DNA from: Phormidesmis sp.
GTDB taxonomy: Bacteria; Cyanobacteriota; Cyanobacteriia; Leptolyngbyales; Leptolyngbyaceae
Direction: 5' to 3'
Assembly: GCA_965248535.1 (NCBI GenBank)
Contig: CBDFJR010000002.1
Location: forward strand, 1,856,001-1,920,000
Length of the DNA stretch: 64,000 bases
Under the pieces are notes generated by a model. It ran no database searches, was not told the origin of the DNA, and was given only the letters and a program-made list of their open reading frames with translations. Below, in pieces: positions 13,797 through 53,322 of this stretch. The translations under genes and the position numbers were made by a program. Numbering within the stretch: the first letter of the stretch is position 1; each line of letters begins with the position of its first letter.

Positions 13797-13868
13797 AGCC
13801 CGTGATCAGGATTGAACTGATGACCTCACCCTTACCAAGGGTGTGCTCTACCACTGAGCCACACGGGC
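13797..13868 (-). tRNA. tRNA-Thr(GGT)
   Basis: Reverse complement GCCCGTGTGGCTCAGTGGTAGAGCACACCCTTGGTAAGGGTGAGGTCATCAGTTCAATCCTGATCACGGGCT folds as a cloverleaf. Confidence 0.96.
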
Positions 13869-13931: not shown

Positions 13932-14013
13932 TGGGCCGGGTTGGATTTGAACCAACGTAGGCGTAGCCAGCGGATTTACAGTCCGCCCCCATTAACCACT
14001 CGGGCACCGACCC
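13932..14013 (-). tRNA. tRNA-Tyr(GTA)
   Basis: Reverse complement GGGTCGGTGCCCGAGTGGTTAATGGGGGCGGACTGTAAATCCGC...GGTTCAAATCCAACCCGGCCCA with long variable arm; typical cyanobacterial Tyr-Thr pair. Confidence 0.96.
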
Positions 14014-45882: not shown

Positions 45883-47210
45883 GGAAAACCTCCGAGAAAC
45901 CCTGATGCTTCAGTACAGGGAGGGATAGGAGCGGCGACTGGATCGAGTCGCCAATCTCTTAGGCTTCTCACAGAATAGATGCTATACTGTGAGGCATGAC
46001 GCAGAAAGCCTTCAAGTACAGAATTTATCCAACGCCTGAGCAAGAATCCTTGCTCAGGCGCACGATGGGCTGTGCTCGCTTGGTGTATAACCGCGCCCTT
46101 GCCTTGCGAACTGACGCATGGTACAACGACCAGAAACGAGTCGGATACAGCGAGACATCTGCGAGTTTGACTGAGTGGAAGAAAAACGAAAGCCTGAGCT
46201 TTCTCAATGAGGTCAGTTGCGTTCCGCTTCAACAGGGATTGAGGCATCTGCAAACCGCGTTCTCCAACTTCTTTGCAGGACGGGCGAACTATCCCACTTT
46301 CAAGAAGAAGCGAAATGGCGGCAGTGCAGAGTTCACCAAGTCTGCCTTTAAGTGGAAGGATGGGCAACTGTTCCTGGCAAAGTGCCTGGAGCCGCTCAAC
46401 ATTCGCTGGAGCCGCACTCTGCCCGATGGTGTTGTGCCTTCCACCGTCACGGTGAAGCTCTCTCCTGCTGGAAGATGGACGGTTTCTCTGCTGACGGATG
46501 TTGAGATTGAGCCATTGCCCACCTCTCTCAACCAAGTTGGGATGGATTTGGGCATCACCAGTTTGATCGCTCTGAGTACGGGCAAAAAGGTTGTCAATCC
46601 TAAAGGCTTCAAAGCAAAACGTGCCAAGCTCAACCGAGCGCAGAAAGCGTTGAGCCGGAAGCAAAAAGGGTCGAACAACCGATATAAAGCTCGAATCAAA
46701 GTCGCTAAAGTTCATGCAGAAATTAGCGATGCTAGAAAGGATTTTCTTCATAAGTTGACGACTCAATTGGTGCGTGAAAACCAAACCATCGCCGTTGAGG
46801 ATTTGGCTGTGAAGAACATGGTGAAGAATCGGAAACTTGCCAAATCCATCAGTGATGCGAGTTGGGGTGAATTGGTCAGACAACTTGAATATAAGTGCGA
46901 CTGGTACGGTCGAAACTTCGTCAAGATTGACCGTTGGTTTCCGAGTTCTAAACGATGTGGCAGTTGTGGTCACATCGTCGATCAGTTGCCGTTGAATATC
47001 CGGGAATGGGACTGTCCCAACTGTGAGATACATCACGACCGGGACATCAACGCAGCCAAAAACATACTCGCCGCAGGGCTTGCGGTGAAAGTCTGTGGAG
47101 CGAACATAAGACCGGATAGGCATAAGTCTGATGGCAGTTGCGATGAAGCAGAAAGGTCTAAGAAGTGATTCTTGGAATCCCTGTACCTTTTAGGTTGGGG
47201 AGGATGTCAA
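45883..47210 (+). mobile_element. IS200/IS605-family element, tnpB only (IS1341-like)
   Basis: Left end: target TCAT, guide GAAA, hairpin CCCTG..CAGGG (45900-45920). Right end: guide GAAT, hairpin, terminal TCAA (47207-47210). No HIP1, no tnpA. Confidence 0.9.
45996..47168 (+). CDS. tnpB: RNA-guided endonuclease TnpB
   Basis: HTH start KAFKYRIYPT; RuvC D (GMDLG), E (AVEDL), D (HDRDINAA); zinc ribbon CGSC..CPNC. Confidence 0.96.
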   Translation: MTQKAFKYRIYPTPEQESLLRRTMGCARLVYNRALALRTDAWYNDQKRVGYSETSASLTEWKKNESLSFLNEVSCVPLQQGLRHLQTAFSNFFAGRANYPTFKKKRNGGSAEFTKSAFKWKDGQLFLAKCLEPLNIRWSRTLPDGVVPSTVTVKLSPAGRWTVSLLTDVEIEPLPTSLNQVGMDLGITSLIALSTGKKVVNPKGFKAKRAKLNRAQKALSRKQKGSNNRYKARIKVAKVHAEISDARKDFLHKLTTQLVRENQTIAVEDLAVKNMVKNRKLAKSISDASWGELVRQLEYKCDWYGRNFVKIDRWFPSSKRCGSCGHIVDQLPLNIREWDCPNCEIHHDRDINAAKNILAAGLAVKVCGANIRPDRHKSDGSCDEAERSKK

Positions 47211-48395: not shown

Positions 48396-48533
48396 CACGA
48401 CGAGTTTCAAGGCTGGAGTTTTGGGTTAAAATCCACTATTACGATTTAACACTGAGGCACAAACGTTACGGCAGATTGTCTCGACGTGATTTTTTGTGTC
48501 TCAACGCACTCAAAACTCCTAACTCAAAATTCT

Positions 48534-49700
48534 ATGAAGCTGGCAGCACGGGTTAAGCAGGTGACTCCTTCTTTGACATTGGCGATCGATGCTAAAGCCA
48601 AAGCCATGAAGCGAGACGGAATCGATGTCTGTAGCTTTAGCGCCGGAGAACCCGATTTTGACACGCCAGATCACATCAAATTGGCGGCGATAGAGGCTCT
48701 TAAGTTAGGCAAAACCCGCTATGGCCCGGCGGTAGGAGAGCCGCTACTGAGAGCGGCGATCGCCCACAAACTGCAAACCGACAATCACCTTGGCTACAGC
48801 GCTGACCACATCATCGTCACCAACGGTGGCAAACATTCGCTCTATAACTTGATGATGGCGCTGATCGAGGCGGGCGACGAAGTAATTATTCCGGCTCCTT
48901 TTTGGGTGAGCTATCCCGAAATGGTGAAGCTTGCTGAAGGCACTCCGGTGATCGTCCAAACGACGGCAGAAAGCGGCTATAAGATTACGCCTGACCAGTT
49001 GCGACAAGCGATCACGCCCAAAACGCGGCTGTTTATTCTCAATTCGCCCTCTAACCCAACGGGGATGGTCTACACGCCCGACGAAGTGAGAGCGATCGCG
49101 GCGGTGGTGGTCGAAAACGATATTTTGGTAGTCTCTGATGAGATTTATGAAAAGCTGCTCTATGACGGTGCTGAACACTTGAGCATTGGAGCGGTGAGTT
49201 CTGAGGTGTTCGATCGCACGATTATCAGCAGCGGGTTTGCCAAAGCGTATTCTATGACGGGTTGGCGAGTCGGCTATTTGGCGGCTCCCCTAGAAATTCT
49301 CAAAGCCGTCAGCATGATTCAAGGGCACAGCACGTCTAACGTGTGTACGTTTGCTCAATATGGCGCGATCGCGGCCCTCGAAAATTCTCAAGATTGTGTC
49401 GAGAAGATGCGTCTGGCCTTTGCCGATCGTCGCCAAGTCATCTTTGATCGGGTGAATGCGATTCCTGGGTTGACCTGCCTCAAGCCTGACGGGGCATTCT
49501 ATCTATTCATCAACACTAGCCAATTGGGGATGTCCTCCCTTGAGTTTTGCGATCAGCTATTAAGCGAAAAGCAGGTCGCCGTGATTCCCGGCGTTGCATT
49601 TGGGGCAGATGATCATATTCGGCTCTCTTATGCGACCGATATGGACACGATCGAGCGCGGCATCGATCGACTAGCCGCCTTTGTGAAATCCAAACTTTAG
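48534..49700 (+). CDS. aspC: PLP-dependent class I/II (aspartate) aminotransferase
   Basis: [40 protein letters not shown]. Confidence 0.9.
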
Positions 49701-49701
49701 C

Positions 49702-50161
49702 CCCAACGTCGTAAGCCCCGCGTTCTACCCGCTTCGGGTAAACGTCGGGATATAAGACGGCGCGACGTAAATACGAAGTCAAGCAGACTCCTGCAAACGT
49801 AGTGCGGAAGCCTGGTATAGTACAGATGGTCGTTGACCCGCCCGATTGTATGGAACAGACAGGCTAACTTCAAAGTAGTCGGACTTGCCGCAGATACATC
49901 AAAGTTCGGGGAAGGAACATATCTTGCTGGTGGGCTATTGCCGTAAATCCATGATGTGTTGTGCGAAAAGCTATCAACCTTGGGACACAGGGTTGCCGCC
50001 TGGGTAACGTTATGGAGCGTTGCGAGAGTCAGTGAGATGTTCTGCATTTCAAAACCTCTGGAGTCAATGTCAGACCAAAGTCAAGGCAACTTGATGGAGG
50101 CAGTTGCCGACGAAACAGGAAGCCCGTGCTGTGTGCGTAGCATCAGCGTCGGGTATGTCAC
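49702..50161 (+). mobile_element. Non-autonomous, protein-free IS200/IS605 derivative (PATE-like)
   Basis: Left-end hairpin 49716-49749 preceded by TAAG; right-end hairpin 50123-50153 preceded by GAAG; terminal TCAC. Left boundary is uncertain by 1 nt. Confidence 0.8.
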
Positions 50162-50198
50162 CCCACTGAGGCTAAGGATCGGGGATTAAATCACCTGC

Positions 50199-50232
50199 GT
50201 AGGGTGGAGTTGAGAGACAAAACCCACCCTAC
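50199..50232. repeat. GTAG-type REP-like palindrome
   Basis: GTAGGGTGG ... CCACCCTAC, 9-bp perfect inverted repeat between convergent genes. Confidence 0.65.
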
Positions 50233-50244
50233 AAACTAGTTGGG

Positions 50245-51534
50245 CTAACTGAGTAGCTCAATGGCCGCGGCTGGGCCCAAAACAGAAACATAAGGCTCCA
50301 GGAAGCAGCGATCGGCGGCTGCCTGAGCCGCTTCTGAAGTCACCGCCGCCACCTCTTGCTGAAAGCGGGTGTCAAACTCAACGCCTAGCCCGATCGTTTC
50401 ATACCACCCAAAGATTTGAGCAAGCTGAGAGTTTGTTTGCTTGCCTAGGGCATATTGCCCCAACATTTTGTTTTGCGACGCTTGCAACTCCTCAGCGGTG
50501 AGGCGTGTAGACCGCAGACGATCGACTTCAGCTTGCAGACCGTCGAGCGCGATCGCGGTGTTTTCTGGAGCCGTGCCCATATAAACAACAAACTGAGATG
50601 CGTCTAATCGGGTCGGATAGAAGGCAGACACCTCATAGGCCAGACCTCGTTTTTCTCGCAGTTCGACAAAGAGACGACTCGACAGCCCGTTGCCCAGATA
50701 AGTGTTGAGCAACTTAAGTGCCGTGTAGTCTGATAAGTCGAGCGTGTCGGAGTTGATCGCGGGAGCCAGATAGCCCAACATGACGATCGATTGCTGCGTC
50801 TCCTGAGTTTTAATCACCCGGTGGGGGTTAAACGGAATCGGCGATAAATTCAGCGTCGGTAGAGGAGCCGCCGGAGCCTGCCAATCTCCTAAAACCTTCT
50901 CAATTGCGGCTACCGCCGCTTCGGGGTCAATCCGCCCGGCAACGCTAATCACTAGATTGTCAGGACGAAAATAGGTCTGATGATACTGCTGCAAATCTTG
51001 GCGAGATAGTTGAGCCACCGTTTCTGCGGTGCCCAACCCCGAAAAAGCATAGGGATGCTGCCCATACATCGCCGATCGCAGCCCATCTAGCGCCACAGTA
51101 AATGGCTGTTCTTGCTGAGAGCGAATCGCTTGCAGGGTTAGGCGACGCTCTAACTCGACTTCTGCGTCTGGAAAGGTGGGCGATCGCAGCACCTCGCCCG
51201 CTAGCGCTAAAATCTCTGGGAAGTCAGCCGAAACGGTTTTTAAACTCAGCAAAAAATAGTCAGAAGCCGAATCGGTGCCTAGACTTGCGCCCACTGACTC
51301 AACCTGTTCGGCAATGTCTAACGATGAAAAGCGATCGGTGCCTTTGGGCATGACGGCAGACACGAGATGCGATAGCCCGGCTTGGTGTGAAGGCTCCCAG
51401 CGGCTGCCTGCCCGAACAAAGAGACGCGCCGCAACAATGTCAGCCGAGGGATTTTCAACCACCAGAACGACGATGCCATTGTTTAAAACAGTGCGGTGGA
51501 TCTGACGACTTTGAGAGATTACGCTAGAGGTCAC
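50245..51534 (-). CDS. M16 peptidase family, non-catalytic subunit
   Basis: M16 fold motifs (SSRLFVELREKRGLAY); HXXEH replaced by HLVSA. Confidence 0.9.
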   Translation of the reverse strand: MTSSVISQSRQIHRTVLNNGIVVLVVENPSADIVAARLFVRAGSRWEPSHQAGLSHLVSAVMPKGTDRFSSLDIAEQVESVGASLGTDSASDYFLLSLKTVSADFPEILALAGEVLRSPTFPDAEVELERRLTLQAIRSQQEQPFTVALDGLRSAMYGQHPYAFSGLGTAETVAQLSRQDLQQYHQTYFRPDNLVISVAGRIDPEAAVAAIEKVLGDWQAPAAPLPTLNLSPIPFNPHRVIKTQETQQSIVMLGYLAPAINSDTLDLSDYTALKLLNTYLGNGLSSRLFVELREKRGLAYEVSAFYPTRLDASQFVVYMGTAPENTAIALDGLQAEVDRLRSTRLTAEELQASQNKMLGQYALGKQTNSQLAQIFGWYETIGLGVEFDTRFQQEVAAVTSEAAQAAADRCFLEPYVSVLGPAAAIELLS

Positions 51535-53135: not shown

Positions 53136-53322
53136 GAAGTTCACCGCAACACCGTTTTACCTCAGTTTTTGACCTGGTGCGAGACCAGGTGGGAGTCGAT
53201 CGTCGGGCTTAAAGTTTCCGGGTACAAGCCCGGTCTACTGCTGCCAGACGTAATTAGATTCCCTTATTGAAAAGCAAGATCATAAAACATTATTGGCAGT
53301 CACCAATGCCGCAGTGAACTTC
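53136..53322 (-). ncRNA. ssrS: 6S RNA (SsaA/SsrS)
   Basis: ~187 nt with complementary ends (GAAGTTCACCGC / GCAGTGAACTTC) and an internal ACCTGGT/ACCAGGT hairpin. Directly downstream of purK, the conserved cyanobacterial locus; TACAAT -10 at 53327-53332 on the minus strand. Confidence 0.88.

What the first reader, a model, noticed from the sequence alone, without database searches (positions are those of the whole stretch)
49813..49960. Unexplained promoter-driven structured RNA module inside the mini-element
Seen: an extended -10 (TGgTATAGT, 49813-49821) followed by densely pairing sequence: GGTC/GACC (49828-49838), CCCGA/TCGGG (49841-49845 with 49906-49910), TGTAT/ATACA, GGCT-ACT/AGT-AGTC, CGG/CCG, and AACATATC/GATGTGTT enclosing GGC-TATT-GCC. 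It does not read as decayed tnpB coding sequence. GTTGACCCGCC...GGGGAAGGAAC loosely recalls IscB/IsrB (HEARO) omegaRNA core motifs; this is a weak, memory-based resemblance. Inference: the element carries an RNA cargo transcribed as one ~330-nt RNA with the downstream omegaRNA, which would make it an RNA-only mobile unit. This is the best candidate here for an undescribed component.
Basis: partly seen in the sequence, partly recalled or inferred. Interest (0 to 1): 0.75.

Follow-up and report, generated by a model that had tools for sequence, protein, structure and literature searches.

The report
Gene-less guide-RNA transposon with conserved leader
A 460-base jumping element with no protein gene carries its own promoter and one long RNA: a TnpB-type guide-RNA scaffold preceded by a conserved, folded 145-base leader. 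This kind of element is known, but I found the leader in no RNA catalogue and in no paper I searched.

Summary
The flagged stretch is real. TGgTATAGT (49813-49821) is a -10 box that sits at the same place in 38 of 43 related elements. The 145 nt behind it (49826-49970) fold into eight helices supported by covariation: 92% of cells paired against 30-42% in slid controls, and 17 of 35 pairs change on both sides. The window sequence alone folds no better than shuffles.

The module is the 5' domain of a ~336-nt RNA. Its 3' 190 nt are a TnpB-type omegaRNA that ends at the right end of a gene-less IS200/IS605 mini-element (49702-50161), inserted after TTAGC. A model of that 3' half hits the 3' ends of seven tnpB genes in the same genome. 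A model of the 5' module hits none of 27 TnpB loci.

The family is widespread and multi-copy in cyanobacteria (12 of 151 genomes sampled). No copy examined lies beside tnpB, and the module occurs on two element lineages with different ends. Rfam has no match, HEARO included.

Gene-less omegaRNA elements are already described. The conserved promoter-plus-leader cassette appears not to be, so this is a new variant of a known kind. The leader's function is inferred, not shown.

The parts
49697..49701 (+). TTAGC target/transposon-adjacent motif directly left of the element. Its TAG is the stop codon of the aminotransferase ORF 48486-49700.
   Evidence: The same TTAGC/TTAAC precedes the left end in G081 (7 of 7 copies) and in Nostocales and Microcoleus copies.
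49702..50161 (+). Gene-less IS200/IS605-type mini-element (PATE-like), 460 bp.
   Evidence: Homology to other copies stops at these ends. It is a single full copy in its own genome. The orthologous site in 4 of 4 same-genus genomes inspected has no element.
49713..49759 (+). Left-end subterminal hairpin region.
   Evidence: It matches the left end of a full-length TnpB IS (L012 87-124; the right end lies 1.4 kb further on with a 419-aa TnpB between them). It also matches left ends in other genomes (query 13-59).
49813..49821 (+). Extended -10 promoter element TGgTATAGT. The predicted transcript start is about 49827-49829.
   Evidence: TANNNT at the same place in 38 of 43 members and TG in 27 of 43, while the sequence upstream diverges. 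The start site itself is not measured.
49826..49911 (+). 5' module, domain A. It has a 5'-terminal hairpin P1 (49828-38) and a long arm P2/P2b/P3/P4. The arm holds the invariant unpaired runs GAACAGACA (49853-61) and CTTGCC-GCAG (49884-93).
   Evidence: Covariation, window coordinates, invariant columns.
49912..49970 (+). 5' module, domain B. A hairpin arm (49916-22/49954-60; 49927-30/49949-53; 49933-35/49940-42), followed by an A-rich linker.
   Evidence: This arm is more variable in some lineages.
49971..50161 (+). TnpB-type omegaRNA scaffold. It comprises a first hairpin, a long-range helix, a variable hairpin and the right-end hairpin, and ends ...GGGTATGTCAC.
   Evidence: Consensus fold with 27 of 44 pairs changed on both sides. 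Model R2 hits the 3' ends of 7 tnpB genes of the same genome. The core aligns with the omegaRNA of the window's own TnpB IS.
50162..50181 (+). Predicted guide portion, made by read-through into the flank. The length is assumed from the family.
   Evidence: Inference from TnpB biology (PMC10278001 Results; PMC10691335 passage). One RNA-library contig of a relative runs 255 nt past its right end (table 7).
45885..47210 (+). Context: a full-length TnpB-only IS. The tnpB ORF is 45996-47168, its omegaRNA about 47071-47210, and it ends ...GGATGTCAA. It is a possible source of TnpB acting in trans.
   Evidence: Pfam OrfB_IS605, Cas12f1-like_TNB and HTH_OrfB_IS605. The ends were read. Its ends and omegaRNA are 74-87% identical to those of the genome's second module-bearing mini-element.

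Best explanation
49813-49960 is the promoter and the folded 5' leader of a single non-coding RNA of about 336 nt plus guide. The RNA is encoded by a protein-less IS200/IS605-family mini-element (49702-50161).

Shown by comparison:
- The element has sharp ends after a TTAGC target and is multi-copy in relatives.
- The leader forms eight covarying helices.
- The 3' 190 nt are a TnpB-type omegaRNA that stops exactly at the right end.
- In full-length relatives the same omegaRNA follows or overlaps the tnpB 3' end. There the leader is absent, so in the mini-elements promoter plus leader occupy the place of the tnpB ORF.

Inferred:
- Transcription starts about 49827-49829 and runs through the right end, which adds a guide copied from the flank.
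- A TnpB made by a full-length IS elsewhere in the genome loads the omegaRNA part in trans. It cuts the empty site (TTAGC plus flank) left after excision by a Y1 TnpA, and repair from the sister copy restores the mini-element.
- My preferred role for the leader is an expression and maturation cassette. It supplies the promoter, a hairpin at the very 5' end and a compact fold that make a stable precursor without the tnpB mRNA. TnpB's known 5' processing may then trim it.

How sure: about 0.85 that this is the structured leader of a standalone omegaRNA gene, and about 0.4 for this particular role of the leader.
For: Promoter: TANNNT at a fixed place in 38/43 members.

Structure: 92.3% of cells paired against 29.7-41.6% in slid controls, 17/35 pairs changed on both sides, 0/500 shuffles as high. 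On 44 model-fitted members: 93.6% paired and 30/35 pairs changed on both sides, including G-C to C-G flips in the helix that never varies within subfamily I.

OmegaRNA identity: R2, built from 13 standalone copies only, gives 9 hits in the window's own genome. One is the window copy itself, 7 lie at or just after TnpB Zn-finger coding ends on the same strand, and 1 is another gene-less element. In the genome's second module-bearing element, the 3' 138 nt are 74-83% identical to the stretch right after the Zn-finger of 4 TnpB IS. That similarity starts exactly where the leader ends.

Leader absent from TnpB IS: R1 run without filters over 27 own TnpB loci, a third mini-element and 2 foreign TnpB IS (93.6 kb) scored at best 14.2 bits, against 28-172 bits for true members.

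Mobility: 12 places in G081. 11 carry 3' halves 94-100% identical to each other, and the 7 copies examined all lie after TTAGC with unrelated flanks.

Partners: three 406-aa TnpB IS in G081 have a matching right end. Y1 transposase genes are present in G000, G003 and G081.

Expression hint: RNA-library contigs of two studies cover 49908-50161 and bridge the junction at 49970/71.

Background: TnpB trims 5' sequence from longer precursors (PMC10278001, Results part 1 read). Standalone omegaRNAs and PATEs act in trans (passages in PMC10691335 and PMC10055086).
Against: No transcript ends were measured for this organism. The RNA evidence consists of contigs from relatives in metatranscriptomes, which can contain DNA and give no start, end or strand.

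The window's leader alone folds no better than shuffles (z +0.66).

In the window's own genome no TnpB IS shares this copy's right end by BLAST. The best omegaRNA matches next to tnpB score only 34-38 bits against 197.6 for the copy itself, so a working partner here is uncertain and the copy may be an orphan.

A pure stabiliser would not obviously need invariant unpaired runs of 9-10 nt. A third gene-less element in the same genome has a promoter but a different leader, so the module is not indispensable for standalone omegaRNAs.

A7 was fitted to the model, which biases its pair counts towards the proposed structure.
Confidence: 0.62

Rival explanations
1. Same RNA, but the leader is a control domain rather than a stabiliser. 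It would bind a protein or small ligand, or fold back on the scaffold, to switch the guide RNA or the TnpB complex on or off. The region of the AmaTnpB mRNA that inhibits cutting is a precedent.
For: The invariant unpaired runs GAACAGACA and CTTGCC-RCAG look like a binding surface. The leader's sequence is better conserved across orders than the omegaRNA half: BLAST from the window to Nostocales copies finds only query 30-197 of the 382-nt core. Nostocales copies add a divergent RHH-like ORF with a palindrome at the RNA promoter, which points to regulated expression. An inhibitory upstream mRNA region is reported for AmaTnpB (PMC10278001, Results part 1).
Against: No Rfam riboswitch or other family matches. 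I found no conserved pairing between the leader and the omegaRNA half; the consensus fold of the whole RNA has no such helix, and a duplex search was uninformative. No terminator-like switch follows the module.
Confidence: 0.2
2. The leader is a self-cleaving or otherwise catalytic RNA that releases an omegaRNA with a defined 5' end without help from TnpB.
For: It is a compact multi-helix fold with invariant unpaired nucleotides in an internal loop. It sits exactly upstream of the first omegaRNA helix.
Against: No ribozyme family of Rfam 15 matches in 12 members. In RNA-library contigs, the domain B region is covered at least as deeply as the omegaRNA and is joined to it.
Confidence: 0.07
3. 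The conserved fold acts as single-stranded DNA of the transposed (top) strand, for example for TnpA or for second-strand synthesis, and not as RNA.
For: IS200/IS605 elements move as top-strand single-stranded DNA (PMC10055086 passage). The G-T/G-U wobble pairs seen fit the top strand as DNA as well as they fit RNA.
Against: A -10 box is conserved at a fixed distance. Full-length IS with the same ends transpose without the module. RNA-library contigs cover it.
Confidence: 0.05
4. The stretch is a protein gene or a remnant of one: decayed tnpB, or the 116-codon ORF on the minus strand (49697-50047).
For: Minus-strand frames of 120-164 codons stay open over the element in 8 of 19 loci.
Against: Close copies differ by 1-nt indels, so no frame is shared. 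Pfam gives 0 families for the ORF. tblastn and tblastx find no protein similarity. The substitutions are compensatory for base pairs.
Confidence: 0.02
5. It is an IscB/IsrB-type (HEARO) omegaRNA.
For: None from tools.
Against: There is no HEARO match even at E up to 10, nor in 11 other members. The conserved RNA ends at the right end and reads outward, as in TnpB systems. R2 hits tnpB 3' ends.
Confidence: 0.01

Closest known systems
Standalone omegaRNA loci and PATE-like gene-less IS200/IS605 elements (described in passages of PMC10691335 and PMC10055086; the original 2021 Science report was not read and is only cited through them)
   Same: It has no protein gene and the same left and right ends as TnpB IS. 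The omegaRNA ends at the right end. It is multi-copy and mobilised in trans, and is expected to use TnpB in trans.
   Different: Here the tnpB ORF is not merely deleted. A conserved -10 box plus a 145-180-nt covarying RNA domain stands in its place, shared by two element lineages across cyanobacterial orders. None of the passages I read mentions such a leader.
omegaRNA encoded at the 3' end of tnpB in IS1341-type (TnpB-only) IS of the same genome (window 45885-47210 and the 407-aa TnpB IS)
   Same: It shares the scaffold core (CUGGAG...AGACC, a hairpin, GGCAG..GAA.CAG.AA) and the right-end hairpin. In the genome's second mini-element the 3' 138 nt are 74-83% identical to it.
   Different: Those RNAs overlap the tnpB coding end and have no module. 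The window copy's scaffold carries extra inserted hairpins and a different terminal hairpin.
5' processing and the cis-inhibitory region of TnpB mRNA (AmaTnpB; PMC10278001, abstract and Results part 1 read)
   Same: Sequence upstream of the mature scaffold is part of the precursor. It can be trimmed by TnpB or can modulate cutting.
   Different: That upstream sequence is coding mRNA. Here it is a dedicated non-coding fold with its own promoter. No processing data exist for this family.
HEARO RNA / IscB omegaRNA (Rfam family, name recalled)
   Same: It is a long structured RNA in IS200/IS605-type elements and is common in cyanobacteria.
   Different: There is no covariance-model match. The guide side and orientation are opposite, since HEARO lies upstream of iscB with the guide at its 5' end (recalled knowledge).

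Membership tests
Standalone TnpB-type omegaRNA in a gene-less IS200/IS605 (PATE-like) element | The element has IS200/IS605-type ends: subterminal hairpins, insertion 3' of a short fixed motif, no inverted repeats and no target duplication. | tested here: met
   Left and right ends match those of a TnpB IS (L012). 7 of 7 G081 copies follow TTAGC and end GGGTACTTCAC with unrelated flanks. The window copy follows TTAGC.
Standalone TnpB-type omegaRNA in a gene-less IS200/IS605 (PATE-like) element | The RNA scaffold is homologous to the omegaRNA at tnpB 3' ends and stops at the right-end boundary. | tested here: met
   7 of the 8 non-self R2 hits in the window's own genome lie at tnpB 3' ends. Conservation stops at ...TCAC in all 24 aligned members.
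Standalone TnpB-type omegaRNA in a gene-less IS200/IS605 (PATE-like) element | No effector or transposase gene lies inside or next to the element. | tested here: met
   The element is 460 bp. Pfam finds nothing in its ORFs. 0 of 12 neighbouring same-strand ORFs in other copies carry TnpB domains, while the control L012 ORF does.
Standalone TnpB-type omegaRNA in a gene-less IS200/IS605 (PATE-like) element | The RNA is bound by TnpB in trans and guides cutting of a target next to the motif. | not testable with these tools
   This needs RIP and interference assays. The only evidence is co-residence of candidate TnpB IS.
Bacterial sigma-70 extended -10 promoter | TGnTAnnnT upstream of a mapped transcript start. 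| tested here: inconclusive
   The motif is present and positionally conserved (38/43 and 27/43). It has no -35 match, and the start is not mapped.
HEARO / IscB-IsrB omegaRNA | A match to the Rfam covariance model. | tested here: not met
Any Rfam 15 family (riboswitches, ribozymes, cyanobacterial sRNAs) | A match at the gathering score, or a consistent sub-threshold match across members. | tested here: not met
   The only matches in the window are 6S RNA and two tRNAs, elsewhere in it. Nothing lies on the RNA in 11 further members.

The most novel reading that the evidence does not exclude
The 5' module is a portable RNA device that turns an omegaRNA into a self-sufficient selfish gene. It would be a promoter-linked folded domain with a specific molecular job: recruiting or competing for TnpB, self-maturation, or switching the complex. 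It would have been passed between two IS lineages with different ends and, in Nostocales, placed under a small RHH-type repressor. Guide-RNA-only parasites of TnpB would then carry their own dedicated RNA machinery, a layer not described for OMEGA systems.
Probability: 0.35. Interest if true: 0.7.

Novelty: new variant of a known kind. Interest (0 to 1): 0.55.

Why it matters
TnpB-omegaRNA systems are the ancestors of Cas12 and are used as compact genome editors. How guide RNAs are expressed, matured and allotted among competing elements is little known.

This family offers a natural case in which the guide RNA has left its nuclease gene and gained its own conserved promoter and a 145-nt folded leader. 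In some lineages it has also gained a putative repressor. It has multiplied to up to 12 copies in one genome.

This makes three questions directly testable:
- What a guide RNA needs in order to be made and loaded in trans.
- Whether RNA-only elements compete with their helper IS for TnpB.
- Whether the leader could improve the stability or control of engineered omegaRNAs.

If the leader proves to be only a stabilising 5' structure, the finding is a tidy addition to a known class.

Tried and rejected
1. Rfam at gathering score over the window, at E up to 10 over 49600-50350, and at E up to 1 over 11 other members gave nothing on the RNA.

2. Protein-remnant tests (tblastn with the L012 TnpB, 51 ORFs from the genome's own TnpB loci, tblastx of the module) gave nothing.

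3. I looked for TnpB beside the copies. ORFs of 375-397 aa upstream of several copies looked promising by size, but Pfam shows other families.

4. The RNAalifold consensus on the module-only alignment A3 recovered only 10 pairs because of gap placement. I therefore wrote the structure by hand from the whole-RNA fold and tested it.

5. Structure-aware MAFFT modes are not installed.

6. The search for pairing between the leader and the omegaRNA half by duplex folding gave whole-length, non-specific duplexes. Recurrent contacts involve invariant columns only, so nothing can be concluded.

7. Empty-site proof failed. The orthologous aminotransferase ends in 4 same-genus genomes carry no element, but their downstream flank is unrelated to the window's, so a precise before-and-after joint could not be shown.

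8. Parts of the stretch without cover in the RNA-library contigs (49797-49901 and others) are not evidence of anything. The relatives differ there by more than 20%.

9. One row of alignment A4 (L018) was given with wrong coordinates and is ignored.

10. Literature. Five full-text searches and passages of four papers gave no description of a leader on standalone omegaRNAs. I read neither whole papers nor supplements, nor the 2021 Science paper, so prior description cannot be excluded.

11. Earlier scan notes for this place and this sequence returned nothing.

Full report
WHERE IT LIES. The flagged stretch lies in the 544-bp gap between an aminotransferase-like ORF (48486-49700, + strand) and a minus-strand ORF (50245-51534). 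Rfam at gathering score finds only a 6S RNA and two tRNAs elsewhere in the window. A permissive scan of 49600-50350 finds nothing credible.

THE ELEMENT. The whole gap occurs once in the window's own genome. In 61 related genomes, long matches covering 49784-50161 occur only in four genomes of the same genus, one of them with at least seven places.
- An exact-pattern scan of one genome per species gave 29 stretches. 20 are true homologues, all in records titled as cyanobacteria: Leptolyngbyales, Phormidesmis, Microcoleus, Nostoc, Calothrix, Okeania and Nostocales.
- A metagenome scan gave 41 stretches, 9 of them true.
- In every copy, similarity stops at ...GGTA(C/T)(G/T)TCAC on the right. Where several copies of one genome could be compared, it starts directly after TTAGC or TTAAC on the left.
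- The window copy therefore spans 49702-50161. The TAG of its TTAGC is the stop codon of the aminotransferase ORF.
- Its left-end region (49713-49759) and its last 45 nt match the two ends of a 1.45-kb IS in another cyanobacterium that holds a 419-aa TnpB.
- Y1 transposase genes are present in the window's genome (11 matches) and in the two multi-copy genomes tested.
- In G081 the module has 12 places. 11 carry 3' halves 94-100% identical to each other. All 7 copies examined follow TTAGC and have unrelated flanks.
- The orthologous site in 4 of 4 same-genus genomes inspected has no element, although the flank is too diverged to show a clean empty joint.
This is a mobile, gene-less IS200/IS605-type mini-element.

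THE PROMOTER. TGgTATAGT is at 49813-49821. I took 43 non-redundant members, after dropping four near-identical copies (L071, L072, L073, L080). A TANNNT hexamer ends exactly 6 nt before the GG of the first helix in 38 of them. TG precedes it in 27. The sequence further upstream differs between lineages. The simple sigma-70 scan does not list the site because it has no -35 match. The transcript start is inferred, not measured.

THE 5' MODULE. On a MAFFT alignment of 25 members, I wrote a structure from the consensus fold of the whole RNA and from inspection.
- It has eight helices and 35 pairs. 92.3% of cells form standard pairs, against 29.7-41.6% when the 3' partners are slid by 1-3 columns.
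- 17 pairs show changes on both sides, and 0 of 500 column shuffles reach the covariation score.
- After realigning 44 members of two subfamilies to the model, the figures are 93.6% paired and 30 of 35 pairs. The helix that never varies within subfamily I flips G-C to C-G in subfamily II. That alignment is fitted to the model, so it leans towards the structure.
- In window coordinates, the structure starts with a hairpin at the very 5' end (49828-38). Next comes a long arm closed by CCCGA/TCGGG, with an internal loop that holds the invariant runs GAACAGACA (49853-61) and CTTGCC-GCAG (49884-93). A second arm spans 49916-49960.
- Taken alone, the window's 145 nt fold no better than shuffled sequence (z +0.66). 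The reverse strand gives z 0.05. The whole RNA gives z -1.56. The case therefore rests on comparison, not on thermodynamics.
- It is not a protein remnant. There is no similarity to TnpB or to anything else in the genome, Pfam finds nothing in the local ORFs, and 1-nt indels between close copies break every frame.

THE 3' HALF IS A TnpB omegaRNA. The consensus fold of 13 standalone 3' halves has 44 pairs, 27 of them with changes on both sides.
- The model built from them (R2) finds 9 places in the window's genome. One is the window copy itself (197.6 bits).
- Seven places overlap or directly follow the Zn-finger coding end of tnpB genes on the same strand. Four of these belong to 407-aa TnpBs and score 34-38 bits.
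- One further place is another gene-less element (60.7 bits).
- Independently, the genome holds a second, distant module-bearing element (C5:1507590-1508036; R1 score 28.3 bits, E 1.5e-4). Its last 138 nt are 74-83% identical to the stretch right after the Zn-finger in four TnpB IS, including the one in this window (tnpB 45996-47168, omegaRNA 47071-47210). Its left end matches their left ends. The similarity begins exactly where the 5' module ends.
- The window copy's scaffold core aligns with that of the window's TnpB IS.

THE MODULE IS SPECIFIC TO GENE-LESS ELEMENTS. I ran R1 without filters over 27 TnpB loci of the genome, the third gene-less element and two foreign TnpB IS, 93.6 kb in all. 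The best score was 14.2 bits (E 0.036), against 28-172 bits for members.
- In 16 of 16 subfamily-I loci tested with both models, the omegaRNA half abuts the module. Subfamily-II loci give only partial core matches to R2.
- 0 of 12 same-strand upstream ORFs beside copies has a TnpB domain.
- In a sample of 151 genomes of the class, 12 have the module.
- The module sits on two element lineages with different ends...GGGTAC(T/G)TCAC and ...GAGGATGTCAA.

EXPRESSION. No run of this organism with RNA was available. Four metatranscriptome runs from two studies hold contigs 80-100% like 49908-50161.
- Two kinds of record bridge the module/omegaRNA junction with at least 31 nt on each side.
- Loose ends show that the contigs continue into variant copies of domain A. 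One contig continues 255 nt beyond a relative's right end.
- Summed contig depth is 50-1000 over the RNA and at most 11 over the left end.
- The tool warns that such contigs may include DNA and cannot rank expression, so I treat this as a hint only.

HOW IT MOST LIKELY WORKS. The element is moved by a Y1 TnpA made elsewhere. Its promoter drives one RNA that reads through the right end and so acquires a guide matching the flank. A TnpB from a full-length IS loads the omegaRNA part in trans and cuts the vacated site (TTAGC plus flank), so that repair restores the element. This logic is established for TnpB IS (passages in PMC10055086).
- The leader replaces the tnpB mRNA context. I favour an expression and maturation role: a promoter, a 5'-terminal hairpin and a compact precursor, possibly trimmed by TnpB's own 5' processing (PMC10278001, Results part 1).
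- The invariant unpaired runs, the higher conservation of the leader relative to the scaffold, and the RHH-like ORF with a palindrome at the promoter in Nostocales copies keep a control function open.
- Weaknesses: no TnpB IS in this genome shares this copy's right end by BLAST, so this particular copy may lack a good partner. A third gene-less element has a different leader.

COMPARISON AND NOVELTY. Standalone omegaRNAs and PATEs that encode omegaRNAs are in print (passages in PMC10691335 and PMC10055086). What I did not find described is the conserved promoter-plus-leader cassette shared by two element lineages across cyanobacterial orders. I looked in Rfam, in five full-text searches and in the passages I read. 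I did not read whole papers, supplements or the original 2021 report. My verdict is a new variant of a known kind.

Noticed in passing
window 45885-47210: A full-length TnpB-only IS (tnpB 45996-47168, 390 aa, with OrfB_IS605, TNB and HTH domains). Its omegaRNA overlaps the last ~100 nt of the gene and ends ...GGATGTCAA at 47210. It is one of 28 TnpB Zn-finger matches in the genome and lies 2.5 kb upstream of the mini-element.
   Followed up: partly
own genome G000:C5:1507590-1508036 (minus strand; locus L130): A second, distant copy of the module-plus-omegaRNA design. It has the other type of ends and a 182-nt module. Its omegaRNA is 74-83% identical to that of four TnpB IS of the genome.
   Followed up: yes
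own genome G000:C2:2231230-2231640 (minus strand; locus L179): A third gene-less element after TTAGC. It has a -10 box (TGATATACT) and an omegaRNA like that of the 407-aa TnpB IS, but a different, shorter leader that the module model does not match.
   Followed up: partly
loci L060, L076, L079, L090, L094, L104, L107, L110 (Nostocales-type copies), 40 nt upstream of the RNA start, opposite strand: A divergent ORF of 45-59 aa with sub-threshold RHH-type matches (DUF6364, HicB, RHH_1). A palindrome lies between it and the RNA promoter. It may be a repressor of the guide-RNA gene. The window copy has no such ORF.
   Followed up: partly
window 50165-50235: Directly right of the element lies another short repeat with a strong hairpin (GTAGGGTGG...CCACCCTAC). 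It recurs in several other cyanobacterial genomes, at ten or more places in G010. The predicted guide region overlaps its start.
   Followed up: no
window 53137-53320 (minus strand); 13797-13868 and 13932-14013 (minus strand): A 6S RNA (101 bits) and two tRNA genes, found by Rfam.
   Followed up: no
locus L088 (metagenome contig): A family member whose domain B is interrupted by unrelated DNA with a long ORF. This is probably another IS inserted into the element.
   Followed up: no
19 family loci, minus strand over the element: Stop-free frames of 120-164 codons persist in 8 of 19 loci although indels rule out a shared frame. This may be a side effect of the constrained RNA sequence, but it is unexplained.
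   Followed up: partly
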